From Promethearchaeota archaeon (GTDB lineage Archaea; Asgardarchaeota; Odinarchaeia; Odinarchaeales; JBHLKK01): 7,415 bases of DNA. The stretch lies in the NCBI GenBank assembly GCA_048939465.1, contig JBHLPL010000096.1:1-7415 (forward strand), given 5' to 3'. Made by a program: the position numbers and the translations under genes. The notes under the pieces are model-generated. The model had not been told where the DNA came from and did not search any database. It was given only the letters and a program-made list of their open reading frames with translations. Below are positions 3,561-6,562 of the stretch, in pieces. How positions within the stretch are numbered: the stretch's first letter is position 1; each line of letters begins with the position of its first letter.

Positions 3561-3637
3561 ACTGAATTCACCAATTGGTATGTATCCATTTTAAATCCTT
3601 AGACGCCAATACAAAAACTACAGACGGGAGGGTGAAA

Positions 3638-3806
3638 ATGGCGATGCTCCTGAAAGGCCCTCCAGGGCATTAGGATATCTCAAGCAAAGCTTTTTGAGTC
3701 TTCTTTTCCTTCGGTTATCCTTGGAATTGGATACGATAATGATTTAAATGGTTCTGACGATATAACTACTAAGCTGGAGGAGGTCAAGGGAAAAGGGGAT
3801 TCTTAA
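3638..3806 (+). pseudogene. Possible frameshifted small ORF
   Basis: Strong SD GGAGGGTGA then ATG 3638 gives only MAMLLKGPPGH*. Removing one G from CCAGGG (3662-3667) joins it to an open frame ending at TAA 3804-3806, giving 55 aa. No recognisable domain. Confidence 0.2.
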
Positions 3807-4168
3807 CCCCCAGCATATCTAGGTAAACAGCTCACTCATGTTTGCGGGATAATGGATGAGTTGATTTAGCAGTAAACCACTCCTGCCTTGCAGAAGGAGC
3901 ATACTACCATGGTTGACCGCAATTCCCTTCCGAGCTTTGGTTTCATCACGCGTCAAACCAGAGGTGGGTTTACAGCGCCCCAGTCTAGCAATCCGCGTAC
4001 AGCGTCAGCCTACTGGGTTTATTCCATCCATCCTCCCCGCAGGTCATTAACCGTTTCCACATTGAAGAGACCTATGCCTTTGGACCTTCGGAGGCTACCA
4101 CAGATTCATTCAAGAACCGCTCAATTTCTCTCCGCCCTTTCAGGCAGAGTCACCTTGAGGTGGTCTAG
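3791..4168 (-). ncRNA. Putative large structured RNA (~380 nt) of unassigned family
   Basis: Nested helices found by eye (plus coordinates): 3843-3848/4036-4041, 3851-3858/4025-4032, 3872-3878/3967-3973, 3910-3923/3945-3960, 3979-3984/4012-4017, 3880-3884/3895-3899, 4042-4045/4069-4072, 4130-4137/4142-4149. Minus-strand loops are GAAA, GGAA, GGAA, GCAA. Several G-U pairs on the minus strand would be A-C mismatches on plus. Confidence 0.7.
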
Positions 4169-4172
4169 ATGA
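4120..4172 (-). mobile_element. IS200/IS605-family left-end-like sequence (non-autonomous or relic) with TCAT/ATGA target motif
   Basis: Minus strand reads TCAT|CTAGACCACCTCAAG-GTGA-CTCTGCCT-GAAA-GGGCGGAG-AGAAATTGAG. This resembles the CAAGGAGACCCCGCCC-N4-GGGCGGGGAGGAATTG end hairpin I recognise from IS200/IS605 (IscB/TnpB) elements. The tetranucleotide at the hairpin foot sits at +16..+19 from TCAT, the same spacing as the IS608 left-end guide. No tnpA, tnpB or iscB ORF is nearby. Confidence 0.6.
4157..4162 (+). promoter_or_regulatory. Shine-Dalgarno site of the glycyl radical enzyme
   Basis: GAGGTG 6 nt upstream of ATG 4169. It lies inside the IS-end-like sequence. Confidence 0.6.
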
Positions 4173-6562
4173 GAAAAGATGCTAGGGATAAGAATTTTCC
4201 GTCAAGAATTGAACCTCTTAGAGAGAGAATGCTGAGAACCAAACCCAGCATAGGCGTCGAAAGAGCTAGATTGTATACAGAGTCAATGAAGCAGACCGAG
4301 ACAGAACCCATGGTGATAAGACAGGCTAAAGCCTTTGCACATATGATGGATAACATTCCCGTCACTATATTCCCGCAGGAGTTGATAGTGGGAACCATGG
4401 TTCGCAAACCCCCGGGAGCCATCGTATTTCCCGAGGGTGTAGGTCTGAGAGCTTTTCCAGAGCTAGACGACATCGGGGACCGTGACGTGAATCCGTTTGA
4501 AGTTTCGGATGAGGAACTAAGGATTCTGAAGGATGAAATAGAACCCTACTGGTCTACAAGATCAATACCGGAATATGCCGAGCACGTCACTCCAAGTAAG
4601 ATTATTGACCGGCTTTATGAAGGTGCTTTCTTCGTTCTCACTGAATTGGCAGGCATCTCACACGTTAGTATAAACTATCCGTATCTCATCTCGGTAGGAT
4701 TTGAGAAGATTAAGAATATGGCTAACAAGAGAATTGGTGAGTATGAGCAAGCCGAGAGAACAGATCCGGATTCAACAGACAAGAGTCTGTTCTACAGAAG
4801 CGCAGAGCTGGTCGCCGAAGGCGTGATAAGATTTGCCCAAAGATACTCCAGAAAGGCCAGAGAGCTCGCCAAAATGGAGAAAAAAGCGACTAGAAGGGAA
4901 GAATTGCTGAGAATCGCAGATAATTGCAAAAACGTTCCAGCCAAACCCCCTAAAACCTTTTACGAGGCACTTCAGTTCATATGGTTCGTTCAGCTCGCCC
5001 TGCATCAGGAGAACTACGAACAAGGGATCTCGATGGGGAGAATGGATCAATATCTATATGAATACTATAAGAGAGATTTGGAAGCAGGATTCTTGGATTT
5101 TGAGAAAGCTGTGGAACTTGTCTCGTGCTTATGGATAAAGACCTGTGAAATACTGCCACTTTTCGATTCCTTCCTAACTATGTATTTTAGTGGATTATTA
5201 ACCAACCAAGCGGTCACACTAAGCGGTGTTAATGAGAATGGCGAAGATGCAACAAATGAGCTAACGTATGTGATGATTGAGGCCAATAGGAGAGTTGCCT
5301 TACGACAGCCGAACGTTCATGTAAGGCTTCACAGGAAGAGCCCGGACAAGCTTTGGAATCTGCTAACAGAGATAGTAGCAAGCGGTACAAACAATATAGC
5401 GCTGTTCAACGATGATGTCGTTATCGAGGCACTATCACGGAAAGGTATTCCACTAAGGGATGCCAAGGATTATGCAACCGTAGGTTGTGTTGAGCTTGCT
5501 CCCTTTGGAAAAGCATTCACTTCTTCGGACGCAGCTCTCTTTAATCTGCCCACCTGTTTGGATCTGGCACTGAACAACGGCGTTAGTACTGCTTCTGGTG
5601 AATTGGTAGGAGTGCAGACAGGGGATTCTGCGGACTTCAAGTCCATAAATGATGTGCTGACTTCGTTCAGGAGTCAGCTCTCATATCTCATCAAAGAGAT
5701 GATTATCGGGTCGAATTCCTTTGAAATCGCAAACCGGGACCTCAAGCCAACACCATTCCTTTCCCTTTGTGTCGAGGGTTGTTTTGAGAAAGGCAAGGAT
5801 ATCACAACAGGATCCGCAACCTATAATTTCACCGGTGTTCAAGGCGTGGGGCTTGCTGATGTGGCTGACTCTTTGGCTGCACTGGATCGAGTGGTATTTG
5901 CAAATGGAAAGGTAAGTATGGGCGAACTTACGGAGGCCCTGAGAAACAATTTTGAAGGAGACGGAGATTTGAGACAGCTGCTCATTAACAAATCCCCGAA
6001 ATATGGCAACGATAACGATATTGCTGATAAATATGCAGAACTTGTGGCAAGAATGTACAGCGAGGAGATAGGGAAATACAGGAATGTGAGAGATGGGGAC
6101 TTCACGCCCGGCATATACTCACTATCTACTCAAATTGGATTGGGGTTCCAGACATCAGCGCTTCCAAGCGGCAGAAAGCATGGTGAGCCCCTCAGCAACG
6201 GTATTTCGCCCTGCATAGGGTCAGAGAGAAAGGGAGTAACAGCGGCCATGAGATCTGTAACGAAGATCGATCATGCTCTTTTTCCAAATGGAGTTTCTTA
6301 CACAGTGACACTGTCGCCGACTCTTTTTGAGGGGGGGCAGGGCTTGAATAACCTGAAAGCTCTGATTAAGACCTATATGGAACTCGGCGGTATGCATATT
6401 CATTTTAACATAGTTAATGTAAAAGAGCTTCTGGACGCGCAGAAGAATCCTGAGAGGTATAGACATCTGATGGTAAGAGTGGGGGGATTCAGCGCCTACT
6501 TCGTGGATCTCACCAGAGAGATGCAGAATGAAATAATTAGCAAGTGTCTTGAGGACCTCTAA
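4169..6562 (+). CDS. Glycyl radical enzyme, PFL2/PflD-like (probable eliminase/dehydratase class, substrate unknown)
   Basis: 797 aa. N-terminal RIEPLRERML..KPSIGVERA and IFPQELIVG motifs, Cys loop GCVE (Cys440 at 5486-5488, Glu442), Gly loop LMVRVGGFSAYFVDL (radical Gly773 at 6485-6487). It lacks the adjacent Cys-Cys of true pyruvate formate-lyase. Confidence 0.95.
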   Translation: MRKDARDKNFPSRIEPLRERMLRTKPSIGVERARLYTESMKQTETEPMVIRQAKAFAHMMDNIPVTIFPQELIVGTMVRKPPGAIVFPEGVGLRAFPELDDIGDRDVNPFEVSDEELRILKDEIEPYWSTRSIPEYAEHVTPSKIIDRLYEGAFFVLTELAGISHVSINYPYLISVGFEKIKNMANKRIGEYEQAERTDPDSTDKSLFYRSAELVAEGVIRFAQRYSRKARELAKMEKKATRREELLRIADNCKNVPAKPPKTFYEALQFIWFVQLALHQENYEQGISMGRMDQYLYEYYKRDLEAGFLDFEKAVELVSCLWIKTCEILPLFDSFLTMYFSGLLTNQAVTLSGVNENGEDATNELTYVMIEANRRVALRQPNVHVRLHRKSPDKLWNLLTEIVASGTNNIALFNDDVVIEALSRKGIPLRDAKDYATVGCVELAPFGKAFTSSDAALFNLPTCLDLALNNGVSTASGELVGVQTGDSADFKSINDVLTSFRSQLSYLIKEMIIGSNSFEIANRDLKPTPFLSLCVEGCFEKGKDITTGSATYNFTGVQGVGLADVADSLAALDRVVFANGKVSMGELTEALRNNFEGDGDLRQLLINKSPKYGNDNDIADKYAELVARMYSEEIGKYRNVRDGDFTPGIYSLSTQIGLGFQTSALPSGRKHGEPLSNGISPCIGSERKGVTAAMRSVTKIDHALFPNGVSYTVTLSPTLFEGGQGLNNLKALIKTYMELGGMHIHFNIVNVKELLDAQKNPERYRHLMVRVGGFSAYFVDLTREMQNEIISKCLEDL

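What the first reader, a model, noticed from the sequence alone, without database searches (positions are those of the whole stretch)
4120..4172. IS200/IS605-like left end whose target motif is the GRE start codon, with no mobility or nuclease gene
Seen: the end hairpin, flanked by CTCAA/TTGAG, is followed on the plus strand by 19 nt and then ATGA (4169-4172), which is also the GRE ATG. The plus strand translates as QFLSALSGRVTLRWSR*, echoing the FLPxLKxGVS...* tail I recall at the 3' end of IscB-type elements. Established: Y1 TnpA cleaves after a tetranucleotide selected by pairing with a guide at the hairpin foot (IS608: TTAC with AAAG at +16..+19), and several IscB/IsrB nucleases use ATGA/NTGA TAMs. 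A TCAT target predicts guide GAxA. The sequence has GTGA at exactly +16..+19, so 2 of 3 pairs fit. Inference: a non-autonomous element that targets start codons, so it lands directly in front of genes without disrupting them, and may now be immobilised by the guide mismatch. The other end was not identified. GTCAA at 3783 is a candidate but lacks the expected guide and matching hairpin.
Basis: partly seen in the sequence, partly recalled or inferred. Interest (0 to 1): 0.75.

Follow-up and report, generated by a model that had tools for sequence, protein, structure and literature searches.

The report
Gene-less IS605 mini-transposon at GRE start
The hairpin in front of the glycyl-radical-enzyme gene is the left end of a 298-base, gene-less relic of an IS200/IS605 (TnpB-type) transposon that landed exactly at the ATG; copies of this family in this Asgard archaeon sit mostly at gene starts and stops, where their own ends read as a ribosome-binding site and a stop codon.

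Summary
Observation confirmed. The reading is supported in its main points and corrected in two details.

Window 3871-4168, read on the minus strand, is a 298-nt non-autonomous IS200/IS605 element:
- target TCAT (= ATGA of the GRE start)
- 19-nt linker
- left-end hairpin
- a TnpB guide-RNA (omegaRNA)-like scaffold
- right-end hairpin, ending ...GTTTAC at 3871

The genome holds about 19 full copies (61-86% identical) and one 1,250-nt TnpB-encoding copy with the same ends. It also holds one Y1 tnpA.

A congener has the GRE locus empty, which fixes both ends and shows no target duplication. The guide/target rule of IS608 fits the family consensus (GAGA/TCAT). It covaries in a sister family (AAGA/TTAT). 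The window copy has GTGA, one mismatch.

The element is TnpB-type, not IscB-type.

On the host-gene strand the left end reads GAGGTGG-N5-ATG and the right end reads G-TAA-AC. Copies are enriched at start codons, at TGA stops and at ATGA stop/start overlaps. Three copies sit in one pyruvate:ferredoxin oxidoreductase operon.

This scan had already reported other copies from this genome as PATE-like elements.

The parts
3871..4168 (-). Whole 298-nt non-autonomous IS200/IS605 (TnpB-derived, PATE/MITE-like) element
   Evidence: Sharp homology boundaries in 15-19 genomic copies. The orthologous GRE locus in congener G001 lacks exactly this stretch.
4169..4172 (-). Target/cleavage tetranucleotide TCAT (plus strand ATGA = GRE start codon + A)
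   Evidence: Present once in the empty site of G001. TCAT flanks 14 of the 24 aligned copies as read from A1; two more (C139b, C69b) show it shifted by one column, and several others carry variants such as TCGT, TTAT or ATAT.
4150..4168 (-). 19-nt left-end linker. Its last 4 nt (reverse complement of 4150-4153 = GTGA) are the guide G_L. On the plus strand 4157-4163 reads GAGGTGG, 5 nt before the ATG.
   Evidence: The 19-nt spacing matches IS608. Consensus G_L is GAGA. The GGTG core is kept in 13/14 copies followed by an ORF against 6/14 without one.
4130..4149 (-). Left-end subterminal hairpin (8-bp stem, GAAA loop on the minus strand)
   Evidence: 8/8 pairs on the minus strand, including 2 G.T wobbles. 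Conserved in all copies, with some compensatory changes.
4120..4159 (-). Outer stem CTCAA/TTGAG enclosing the hairpin and the guide
   Evidence: Pairs 14-18/49-53 of alignment A1 form in 19-24 of 24 copies. The CCTCAAGGA box is also kept in Hodarchaeota and Borrarchaeota relatives.
4107..4115 (-). Degenerate TATA-like box (TCTTGAATG; family consensus CCTTAAATA). This is the tnpB promoter position in the autonomous copy.
   Evidence: In the autonomous copy TTAAATA lies about 25-30 nt before the tnpB ATG. Per-copy comparison. Promoter function is inferred.
3871..4020 (-). omegaRNA-like scaffold: remnant of the tnpB 3' end plus the right end
   Evidence: Homologous to the right end of the TnpB-encoding copy (E 1e-22). 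A tblastn remnant of TnpB residues 332-363 lies at about 3936-4031. Folding favours the minus strand, with G.U 248 against A.C 80 cells.
3879..3898 (-). Right-end subterminal hairpin (6/7 pairs in this copy)
3871..3878 (-). Right-end tail ...TGGTTTAC| (cleavage after TTAC). On the plus strand it reads G-TAA-AC.
   Evidence: Boundary fixed by the empty site. In other copies a long upstream ORF ends on this TAA.
3851..3870 (-). Flank that would be the omegaRNA guide if this copy were transcribed past its right end
   Evidence: Inference from the TnpB/omegaRNA architecture. No RNA data are available.
4169..6562 (+). Glycyl radical enzyme gene whose start codon is the insertion target
   Evidence: Pfam PFL-like E 6e-196 and Gly_radical E 2e-28. 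The start codon is conserved in G001.

Best explanation
Window 3871-4168 is a 298-nt, protein-less, internally deleted derivative of an IS200/IS605-family (TnpB-only, IS1341-like) insertion sequence. Its active ('top') strand is the window's minus strand.

A Y1 TnpA supplied in trans once inserted it as single-stranded DNA directly 3' of TCAT. That places it between the native ribosome-binding region and the ATG of the glycyl-radical-enzyme gene. There is no target duplication.

The element keeps four features:
- the left-end hairpin with its 19-nt linker and 4-nt guide
- a decayed promoter box
- the omegaRNA scaffold that overlapped the lost tnpB 3' end
- the right-end hairpin

On the gene's strand the left-end linker reads GAGGTGG-N5-ATG. 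The element therefore now supplies the gene's Shine-Dalgarno sequence. The GRE mRNA must either read through the element or start inside it.

This copy is old. It is at most 77% identical to any other copy and is found in every population sampled. It has one mismatch in its guide, so it is probably no longer mobile.

What is shown: identity, both ends, the target, the empty site, homology to a TnpB copy, and strand-specific structure. What is inferred: past mobilisation by the genome's TnpA, use of the Shine-Dalgarno sequence, and loss of mobility.
For: Copy number and boundaries:
- About 15 full copies at 67-79% identity, and 4 more diverged ones, all with the same sharp boundaries.

Autonomous relative:
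- A 1,250-nt copy was rebuilt from C55 and C70, which share a 77-nt exact overlap. It has the same two ends and encodes a 381-aa TnpB with OrfB_IS605 and Cas12f1-like TNB domains. Its best PDB matches are TnpB and Cas12f.
- One intact Y1 tnpA is present in the genome (PF01797, E 7.5e-37).

Empty sites:
- G001 has the GRE locus empty...GATTTAATA|ATGAAG against window ...GATTTAGCA[element]ATGAGA.
- Three other G000 insertion sites are also empty in both G001 and G002.
- One site is filled in both G000 and G001.

Left-end anatomy:
- TCAT, a 19-nt linker, then the hairpin, as in IS608.
- The guide/target pairing is GAGA/TCAT here and AAGA/TTAT in sister family B. This is a coupled change that follows the IS608 rule.

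Strand:
- The structure favours the minus strand. Alifold gives -83 against -70 kcal/mol, 89% of cells are paired, and G.U cells outnumber A.C cells 248 to 80.

Population data:
- Contigs from four independent metagenome runs bridge both junctions. No empty-site joint was seen.
Against: - No transcript data exist, so neither the omegaRNA nor read-through of the GRE mRNA is shown.
- The right-end tail is 8 nt, not the 10 nt of IS608. The right-end guide fits the rule at only 2 of 3 positions (own reading).
- Compensatory changes in the stems are no more frequent than in slid controls. The structural support therefore rests on the paired fraction and on strand asymmetry.
- Whether the single TnpA on C105 recognises these ends was not tested.
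Confidence: 0.92

Rival explanations
1. Beyond being a relic, this family is adapted, or has been exapted, for seamless insertion at gene boundaries. The target ATGA holds both a stop (TGA) and a start (ATG). On the host strand the right end supplies G-TAA and the left end supplies a Shine-Dalgarno sequence. Insertions at start codons, at A|TGA stops and at ATGA overlaps then leave both neighbouring genes intact. Such copies become locked in as intercistronic spacers.
For: Start codons:
- 12-17 of 31 left-end copies, and 10-15 of 19 full copies, have the terminal ATG as the start of a long ORF. A crude null gives 11% (p < 1e-4).

Stop codons:
- Long upstream ORFs end exactly on the element's TAA/TAG in C66 (620 aa), C38, C96, C139a, C139b, C55/C70 and C5. 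The same is seen in 4 independent loci of relatives.

Overlaps:
- ATGA sites that are both a stop and a start make up about 1% of non-intragenic ATGA sites, but 5 of 21 copies.
- Three copies sit at cistron junctions of one four-subunit POR operon.

Selection on the SD:
- The GGTG core survives in 13/14 copies followed by an ORF against 6/14 without one. Hairpin identity is equal in the two groups.

Control:
- Family B (target TTAT) is equally diverged, yet 0 of 19 copies lie at stops and only about 1-3 lie at starts.
Against: - Gene calls were crude (an ORF heuristic). With generous definitions the null could reach about 32%.
- In G001 and G002 only 5 of 16 left-end copies lie at starts.
- The CCTCAAGGA box and the stop-containing right-end terminus are also kept in Borrarchaeota relatives that are not at gene starts. 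IS608's own right end reads TTGA on the opposite strand (CR TCAA; the reverse complement is my own reading). The signals may therefore be coincidental by-products of TnpA recognition.
- Purifying selection after random ATGA insertion could produce part of the pattern.
Confidence: 0.4
2. The copy is still a working guide-RNA gene. Its minus strand is transcribed into an omegaRNA whose 3' guide (the flank 3851-3870) directs a TnpB made elsewhere in the genome. That TnpB would either cut empty alleles (homing/retention) or act as a regulator near the GRE promoter.
For: - The scaffold is conserved and folds strand-specifically.
- Orthologous element pairs are 84-85% identical, whereas the GRE gene is 76% and its upstream flank 78% identical between G000 and G001.
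- A TnpB with the sequence stretches expected for the RuvC Asp/Glu/Asp triad (own reading of the translation) is encoded in the genome.
- PATEs that encode omegaRNAs used in trans are described (PMC10055086).
Against: - The promoter-like box of this copy is degenerate: TCTTGAATG against consensus CCTTAAATA.
- The window copy scores 12th of the 15 strongest full copies against the family profile.
- No RNA run holds the locus.
- No empty allele was seen in four populations.
Confidence: 0.15
3. It is a plus-strand cis-regulatory leader (riboswitch-like 5' UTR), or a small protein gene (ORF 3888-4172) translationally coupled to the GRE through the ATGA overlap.
For: - The stretch lies directly upstream of the gene on the same strand, and copies precede many genes.
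- A 94-aa ORF ends in the ATGA.
Against: - No Rfam family matches.
- Pairing favours the minus strand.
- The ORF has no Pfam hit and carries 1-7 stops in all 24 aligned copies.
- The stretch is absent from the orthologous locus in G001.
- It is homologous to the ends of a TnpB transposon.
Confidence: 0.02
4. It is the end of an IscB/IsrB-type element, as the reader's recalled peptide echo and ATGA TAM suggested.
For: IscB elements also belong to IS200/IS605 and place their omegaRNA at the left end.
Against: - The autonomous relatives with these ends, here and in other Asgard MAGs, encode TnpB.
- The structured scaffold lies at the right end and overlaps the tnpB 3' end.
- Rfam, which includes HEARO, gives no hit.
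- The 'peptide' is simply the hairpin translated.
Confidence: 0.02

Closest known systems
PATE-like gene-less IS200/IS605 elements that carry omegaRNAs (Geobacillus stearothermophilus ISGst families; Meers et al. 2023, PMC10055086)
   Same: - No protein-coding gene.
- Keeps the left and right ends of a TnpB-encoding IS, plus the guide-RNA scaffold.
- Many copies per genome, presumably moved in trans by a single tnpA and served in trans by TnpB.
   Different: - The host is an archaeon (Asgard).
- The target is TCAT.
- Copies are old (61-86% identical).
- Copies concentrate at start codons, TGA stops and ATGA overlaps, with the element ends reading as a Shine-Dalgarno sequence and a stop codon on the host-gene strand. 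I found no report of this in the papers searched.
IS608 of Helicobacter pylori (the reference IS200/IS605 element; PMC3597680)
   Same: - Subterminal hairpins at both ends.
- Cleavage site 19 nt 5' of the left hairpin.
- A 4-nt guide at the hairpin foot pairs with the cleavage tetranucleotide by the same positional rule.
- Insertion 3' of the tetranucleotide without duplication.
   Different: - IS608 targets TTAC and carries both tnpA and tnpB. Here the target is TCAT and there are no genes.
- The right-end tail is 8 nt here against 10 nt in IS608.
- The IS608 linker is described as unprotected and exposed in the transpososome. Here the left-end linker is predicted to lie in an outer stem.
ISDra2-type TnpB/omegaRNA (OMEGA) systems
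   Same: - TnpB with a RuvC domain and a zinc ribbon.
- The guide-RNA scaffold overlaps the tnpB 3' end and stops at the right end.
- The expected TAM equals the transposon target.
   Different: The TAM would be TCAT rather than TTGAT. Nuclease activity and RNA were not tested here.
IStrons (group I intron + IS605 chimeras)
   Same: Both are IS605 relatives that make their insertion phenotypically silent for the interrupted transcription unit.
   Different: Silencing there works by RNA self-splicing. Here no intron was found: no Rfam group I hit and no convincing bulge-helix-bulge motif. Instead the element's ends appear to replace the stop and ribosome-binding signals.

Membership tests
IS200/IS605 (Y1 TnpA-mobilised) element | Subterminal imperfect hairpins near both ends, on the same strand, without long terminal inverted repeats | tested here: met
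   Left-end hairpin 4130-4149 and right-end hairpin 3879-3898. They are paired in 19-23 of 24 copies.
IS200/IS605 (Y1 TnpA-mobilised) element | Asymmetric ends: the left cleavage site lies about 19 nt 5' of the left hairpin, and the right cleavage site a short distance (10 nt in IS608) 3' of the right hairpin | tested here: met
   The left linker is exactly 19 nt. The right tail is 8 nt. Reference values come from PMC3597680.
IS200/IS605 (Y1 TnpA-mobilised) element | A 4-nt guide at the hairpin foot is complementary to the cleavage tetranucleotide (IS608: AAAG/TTAC and GAAT/TCAA) | tested here: met
   The consensus GAGA/TCAT fits at 3 of 3 positions. Sister family AAGA/TTAT also fits at 3 of 3, a coupled change. 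The window copy GTGA fits at 2 of 3. The right-end guide fits at 2 of 3.
IS200/IS605 (Y1 TnpA-mobilised) element | Insertion 3' of the target tetranucleotide with no target-site duplication, with precise empty sites | tested here: met
   The GRE locus is empty in G001. The C23, C59 and C139a sites are empty in G001 and G002. The C139a site carries an extra 28-nt difference.
IS200/IS605 (Y1 TnpA-mobilised) element | A Y1 HUH transposase able to act on these ends | not testable with these tools
   One full-length PF01797 gene lies on C105 in a tnpA-tnpB element whose right-end hairpin and tail resemble the family's. Activity on these ends was not assayed.
TnpB/omegaRNA-bearing PATE | The ends are shared with an element that encodes TnpB (RuvC + zinc ribbon) | tested here: met
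   The joined C55+C70 element has both ends and a 381-aa TnpB. Relatives occur in Hodarchaeota and Borrarchaeota MAGs.
TnpB/omegaRNA-bearing PATE | A right-end-proximal scaffold derived from the tnpB 3' end, structured on the top strand | tested here: met
   nhmmer profile positions 2-154 match the TnpB copy's right end. A TnpB 332-363 remnant is present in shifting frames. G.U cells exceed A.C cells 248 to 80.
TnpB/omegaRNA-bearing PATE | The omegaRNA is expressed and used by TnpB, with TAM equal to the target | not testable with these tools
   No RNA run holds the locus.
IscB/IsrB element | An iscB/isrB gene, or a HEARO-type omegaRNA at the left end | tested here: not met
   No Rfam match. 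The autonomous relatives encode TnpB. The genome was not searched with an IscB profile.
Cis-regulatory leader RNA / riboswitch | Conserved at orthologous loci and structured on the mRNA strand | tested here: not met
   Absent from the G001 ortholog. The structure favours the opposite strand.

The most novel reading that the evidence does not exclude
This IS605 lineage may be a 'gene-boundary' transposon. Its target ATGA is the classic stop/start overlap of coupled genes. On the host strand its right end restores an in-frame stop (..NNA|TGA becomes ..NNG-TAA) and its left end brings a Shine-Dalgarno sequence 5 nt before the retained ATG. It can then sit between cistrons, with three copies in one POR operon, without breaking either gene. 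Once fixed, a copy cannot be lost except by precise excision. The excess of copies at such sites over other non-coding ATGA sites would then reflect an evolved property or targeting bias, and not only a selection filter.
Probability: 0.4. Interest if true: 0.65.

Novelty: new variant of a known kind. Interest (0 to 1): 0.5.

Why it matters
- It explains the odd 660-nt 'non-coding' stretch and the ATGA in front of the GRE operon. It also shows that the gene's present ribosome-binding site is transposon-derived.
- At family level it gives a clean natural test of the IS608 guide/target rule in archaea: two sister families with coupled guide and target changes.
- It points to a way for a transposon to be nearly harmless. 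It inserts at ATGA gene junctions while carrying replacement stop and translation-start signals.
- If real, this bears on three questions: how operons tolerate mobile DNA, how MITEs become fixed parts of transcripts, and which TAM (TCAT) an Asgard TnpB would use.
- The element type itself is already known, and this scan reported other copies from this genome before.

Tried and rejected
- **Rfam, whole window, both strands, E <= 1.** Only a sub-threshold C/D-box hit inside the GRE gene.
- **Folding of the hairpin alone.** Not better than shuffles.
- **RNAalifold on the whole element.** Gave an unconvincing global fold with covariation term -0.48. Sub-region folds with ribosum scoring were used instead. 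Counts of compensatory pairs did not exceed slid controls.
- **Plus-strand ORF 3888-4172 as a gene.** Rejected: no Pfam hit, and stops in all 24 aligned copies.
- **Bulge-helix-bulge (tRNA-type intron) removal of the element from the mRNA.** Only weak, G.U-rich candidates recurred, in 5-6 of 14 copies. Not convincing.
- **Expression.** No RNA holder is listed among public runs.
- **Empty allele in populations.** Contigs from four metagenome runs showed no empty-site joint. Contigs drop rare variants, so this is not proof of fixation.
- **Survivorship-only explanation of the gene-boundary bias.** Family B copies are as diverged as family A (70-79% against 76% mean identity) but are not at boundaries.
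- **Generality of start-codon association.** TnpB relatives in Borrarchaeota use a TCAC/TTCA-type flank and are not at gene starts. The association is therefore not general to the clade.
- **Literature.** Searches for start-codon or Shine-Dalgarno-linked IS605 insertion and for a TCAT TAM found nothing relevant. One search call failed on syntax.
- **ISfinder comparison.** Not possible with these tools.

Full report
**1. The observation**

- CTCAA (4120-4124) and TTGAG (4155-4159) enclose a hairpin: stem 4130-4137 / 4142-4149, loop 4138-4141.
- 19 nt follow (4150-4168), then ATGA (4169-4172).
- That ATG opens a 797-aa PFL-like/Gly_radical protein. A radical-SAM activase follows it.

Folded alone, the hairpin is not better than shuffled sequence. 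Its reality had to come from comparison with other copies.

**2. It is one end of a 298-nt repeat**

Searching the window's own genome (1.96 Mb, 152 contigs, 91% complete) with the 659-nt spacer upstream of the GRE showed that only 3871-4168 is repeated.
- About 15 full-length copies at 67-79% identity were found first. A profile search raised this to about 19 full copies plus many fragments.
- The copies share sharp boundaries. On the plus strand they begin GTAAAC... and end ...GAGGTGGTTTAG, followed by ATGA.

**3. It is a deleted TnpB transposon read on the minus strand**

- Contigs C55 (end) and C70 (start) overlap by 77 identical bases. Joined, they give a 1,250-nt element with the same two termini.
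- That element encodes, on the strand opposite to the GRE orientation, a 381-aa TnpB. It has OrfB_IS605 and Cas12f1-like TNB domains, and its best PDB matches are TnpB and Cas12f.
- The 298-nt unit consists of its left end (about 80 nt), a scrap of internal tnpB sequence, and the last about 150 nt (tnpB 3' end plus right end). A TnpB 332-363 remnant survives in shifting frames.
- The genome also has one intact Y1 tnpA next to a tnpB on C105, and further TnpB genes.
The 'IscB tail' echo is the hairpin translated. The family is TnpB-type.

**4. Both ends fixed by an empty site**

In congener G001, contigs C107 and C17 overlap by 77 bases and rebuild the orthologous locus.
- G001 reads ...GATTTAATA|ATGAAGAAAAATG.
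- The window reads ...GATTTAGCA[3871-4168]ATGAGAAAAGATG.
- The element therefore lies exactly between the upstream flank and ATGA, with nothing duplicated.
- Three further G000 insertion sites (before a nucleotidyltransferase, an aminotransferase and POR alpha) are empty in both G001 and G002.
- The site before isocitrate dehydrogenase is filled in both G000 and G001.
- Contigs from four independent metagenome runs bridge both junctions of the window copy. No empty form was seen.

**5. IS200/IS605 membership**

Read on the minus strand, the left end is TCAT | 19-nt linker | 8-bp hairpin.
- IS608 has the same 19-nt spacing. Its guides are AAAG for TTAC and GAAT for TCAA (PMC3597680).
- The family consensus guide is GAGA, a perfect partner for TCAT.
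- A second family in the same genome (family B, about 19-27 copies) has guide AAGA and flank TTAT. This is a coupled change at exactly the predicted positions.
- Its left hairpin is 8/8 paired on the minus strand, two of the pairs being G.T. These are C.A mismatches on the plus strand.
- Across 24 aligned copies, a structure predicted for the minus strand has 89% of cells paired, against 37-46% for slid controls. It has 248 G.U cells against 80 A.C cells.
- Consensus folding is 11-15 kcal/mol better for the minus strand.
- Compensatory changes are not more frequent than in the controls. The structural evidence is therefore strand asymmetry and conservation, not covariation.

**6. Position relative to host genes**

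*The left end and start codons.* On the plus strand the left-end linker reads GAGGTGG, 5 nt before the retained ATG.
- In G000 the terminal ATG, or an ATG within 4 nt where the target has mutated, opens a long ORF in 12-17 of 31 left-end copies and in 10-15 of 19 full copies.
- These ORFs include the GRE, isocitrate dehydrogenase, POR alpha and beta, a class-III aminotransferase, a nucleotidyltransferase and, probably, ribosomal protein S27ae by its sequence.
- With a crude ORF-based gene set, only 11% of ATGA sites outside genes are gene starts (p < 1e-4).
- Empty sites show that the genes had their own GGTG/GGAGG boxes. The element landed between that box and the ATG.
- Where an ORF follows, the GGTG core is kept in 13/14 left ends, against 6/14 where none follows (Fisher p = 0.013). 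Hairpin identity is the same in both groups. This suggests host selection on the borrowed ribosome-binding site.

*The right end and stop codons.* The right end reads G-TAA-AC on the plus strand.
- A long upstream ORF ends exactly on that TAA (or a TAG variant) in seven G000 copies: 620, 338, 200, 118, 418, 207 and 364 codons.
- The same holds at four independent loci of the relatives.
- Removing the element turns ..NNG-TAA back into ..NNA-TGA overlapping ATG, as the G002 POR locus shows.
- Sites where ATGA is both a stop and a start are about 1% of non-intragenic ATGA sites, but 5 of 21 copies.
- One four-subunit POR operon (gamma, delta, alpha, beta) carries copies before gamma, between delta and alpha, and between alpha and beta.

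*Control.* Family B is equally diverged. It has 0 of 19 copies at stops and at most a few at starts.

*Caveats.*
- The gene calls are heuristic. With generous definitions the null could reach about 32%.
- In G001 and G002 only 5 of 16 left ends are at starts.
- The CCTCAAGGA box is also conserved in Borrarchaeota relatives that are not at gene starts.
- The signals may therefore be by-products of TnpA recognition that selection then exploited.

For the window copy only the start-codon side applies. The frame ending on its TAA is one codon long.

**7. Age and state of the window copy**

- No two copies exceed 86% identity.
- Orthologous pairs are 84-85% identical, about the same as the closest paralogues.
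- The window copy is at most 77% identical to any other copy.
- It has a guide mismatch, one broken pair in the right hairpin and a degenerate promoter-like box.
- It ranks 12th of the 15 strongest full copies against the family profile.
- It is best seen as an old, probably immobile insertion whose left end now serves as the GRE ribosome-binding region.
- Whether it still yields a guide RNA is unknown. No RNA run holds the locus.

**8. Organism**

- The genome is archaeal by my reading of the 68-aa ORF at C69 as ribosomal protein S27ae (identified by eye, no search run).
- Congener G001's 3,807-nt contig is the record titled 'Candidatus Hodarchaeota archaeon isolate DZ1B.307'.
- The closest TnpB relatives (68-82% aa identity) are in Hodarchaeota and Borrarchaeota MAGs.
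- In 28 other genomes of the same order or phylum the element was not found.

**9. Comparison with what is known**

- Gene-less IS200/IS605 elements that keep both ends and an omegaRNA (PATE-like) are described (PMC10055086).
- This scan had already reported other copies from this same genome as such.
- The window copy is therefore a further member of a known kind.
- What goes beyond the descriptions I could find is the family-level pattern. Target ATGA, a stop codon in the right end and a Shine-Dalgarno sequence in the left end go together with a marked concentration at gene boundaries and inside operons.
- I rate that reading at about 0.4.

Noticed in passing
window 3595-3806 (and L030 1077-1337 in G001): G001 has an 86-aa ORF ending 13 nt before the GRE ATG. 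In the window its counterpart is split over two frames near 3725 and stops early at 3806. One metagenome contig (X6) lacks one base at 3725. This is either a polymorphic frameshift, a decaying small gene, or an assembly error.
   Followed up: partly
G000 C139:2697-5569 (L037 698-3570): A four-subunit pyruvate/2-oxoacid:ferredoxin oxidoreductase operon (gamma, delta, alpha, beta) carries three family-A copies: a partial one before gamma, and full ones between delta/alpha and alpha/beta. The delta/alpha site is empty in G001 and G002.
   Followed up: partly
G000, about 19-27 loci, e.g. C39, C137, C141, C68, C130: A sister family B of gene-less IS605 elements comes in two size classes (about 220 and about 350 nt). 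It has flank TTAT, guide AAGA and a right-end terminus that reads GTGAAC on the opposite strand. Its copies are not at gene starts or stops. C2 holds a 384-aa TnpB copy with this left end.
   Followed up: partly
G000 C105:995-1047 (L043): Just upstream of the tnpA-tnpB element lies a roughly 48-nt unit made of a family-B-type linker and hairpin followed directly by the right-end tail TAGTTTAC. It may be a minimal element or a solo end.
   Followed up: no
G000 C84:8667-8770 and C41:8642-8747: Two mini-elements of about 105 nt consist of the first about 60 nt and the last about 48 nt of the family-A unit, i.e. the right-end and left-end hairpin regions only.
   Followed up: no
G000 C59:1586-1615 (L032): A 30-nt fragment resembling the right-end terminus lies directly beside the full copy. 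It is absent from the empty sites of G001 and G002, which suggests two events or a rearrangement at this site.
   Followed up: no
G000 C118:3635-3933: The left-end side of this copy is degenerate. The sequence that follows resembles the 3' half of a tRNA gene on the opposite strand. This was not checked with ARAGORN.
   Followed up: no
window 4165: All four metagenome runs read T where the window has C. T is also the family consensus (GGTTTAG).
   Followed up: no
G001 C107 end / C17 start; G000 C55 end / C70 start: Contigs break with exact 77-nt overlaps at or inside element sites. In G001 the break lies at the empty GRE start, which could reflect a filled/empty polymorphism in that population's assembly graph.
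   Followed up: no
window 4505-4552: A sub-threshold match to the C/D-box sRNA family sR41 (19.8 bits against a gathering score of 54, E 0.28) lies inside the GRE coding region. It is probably chance.
   Followed up: no
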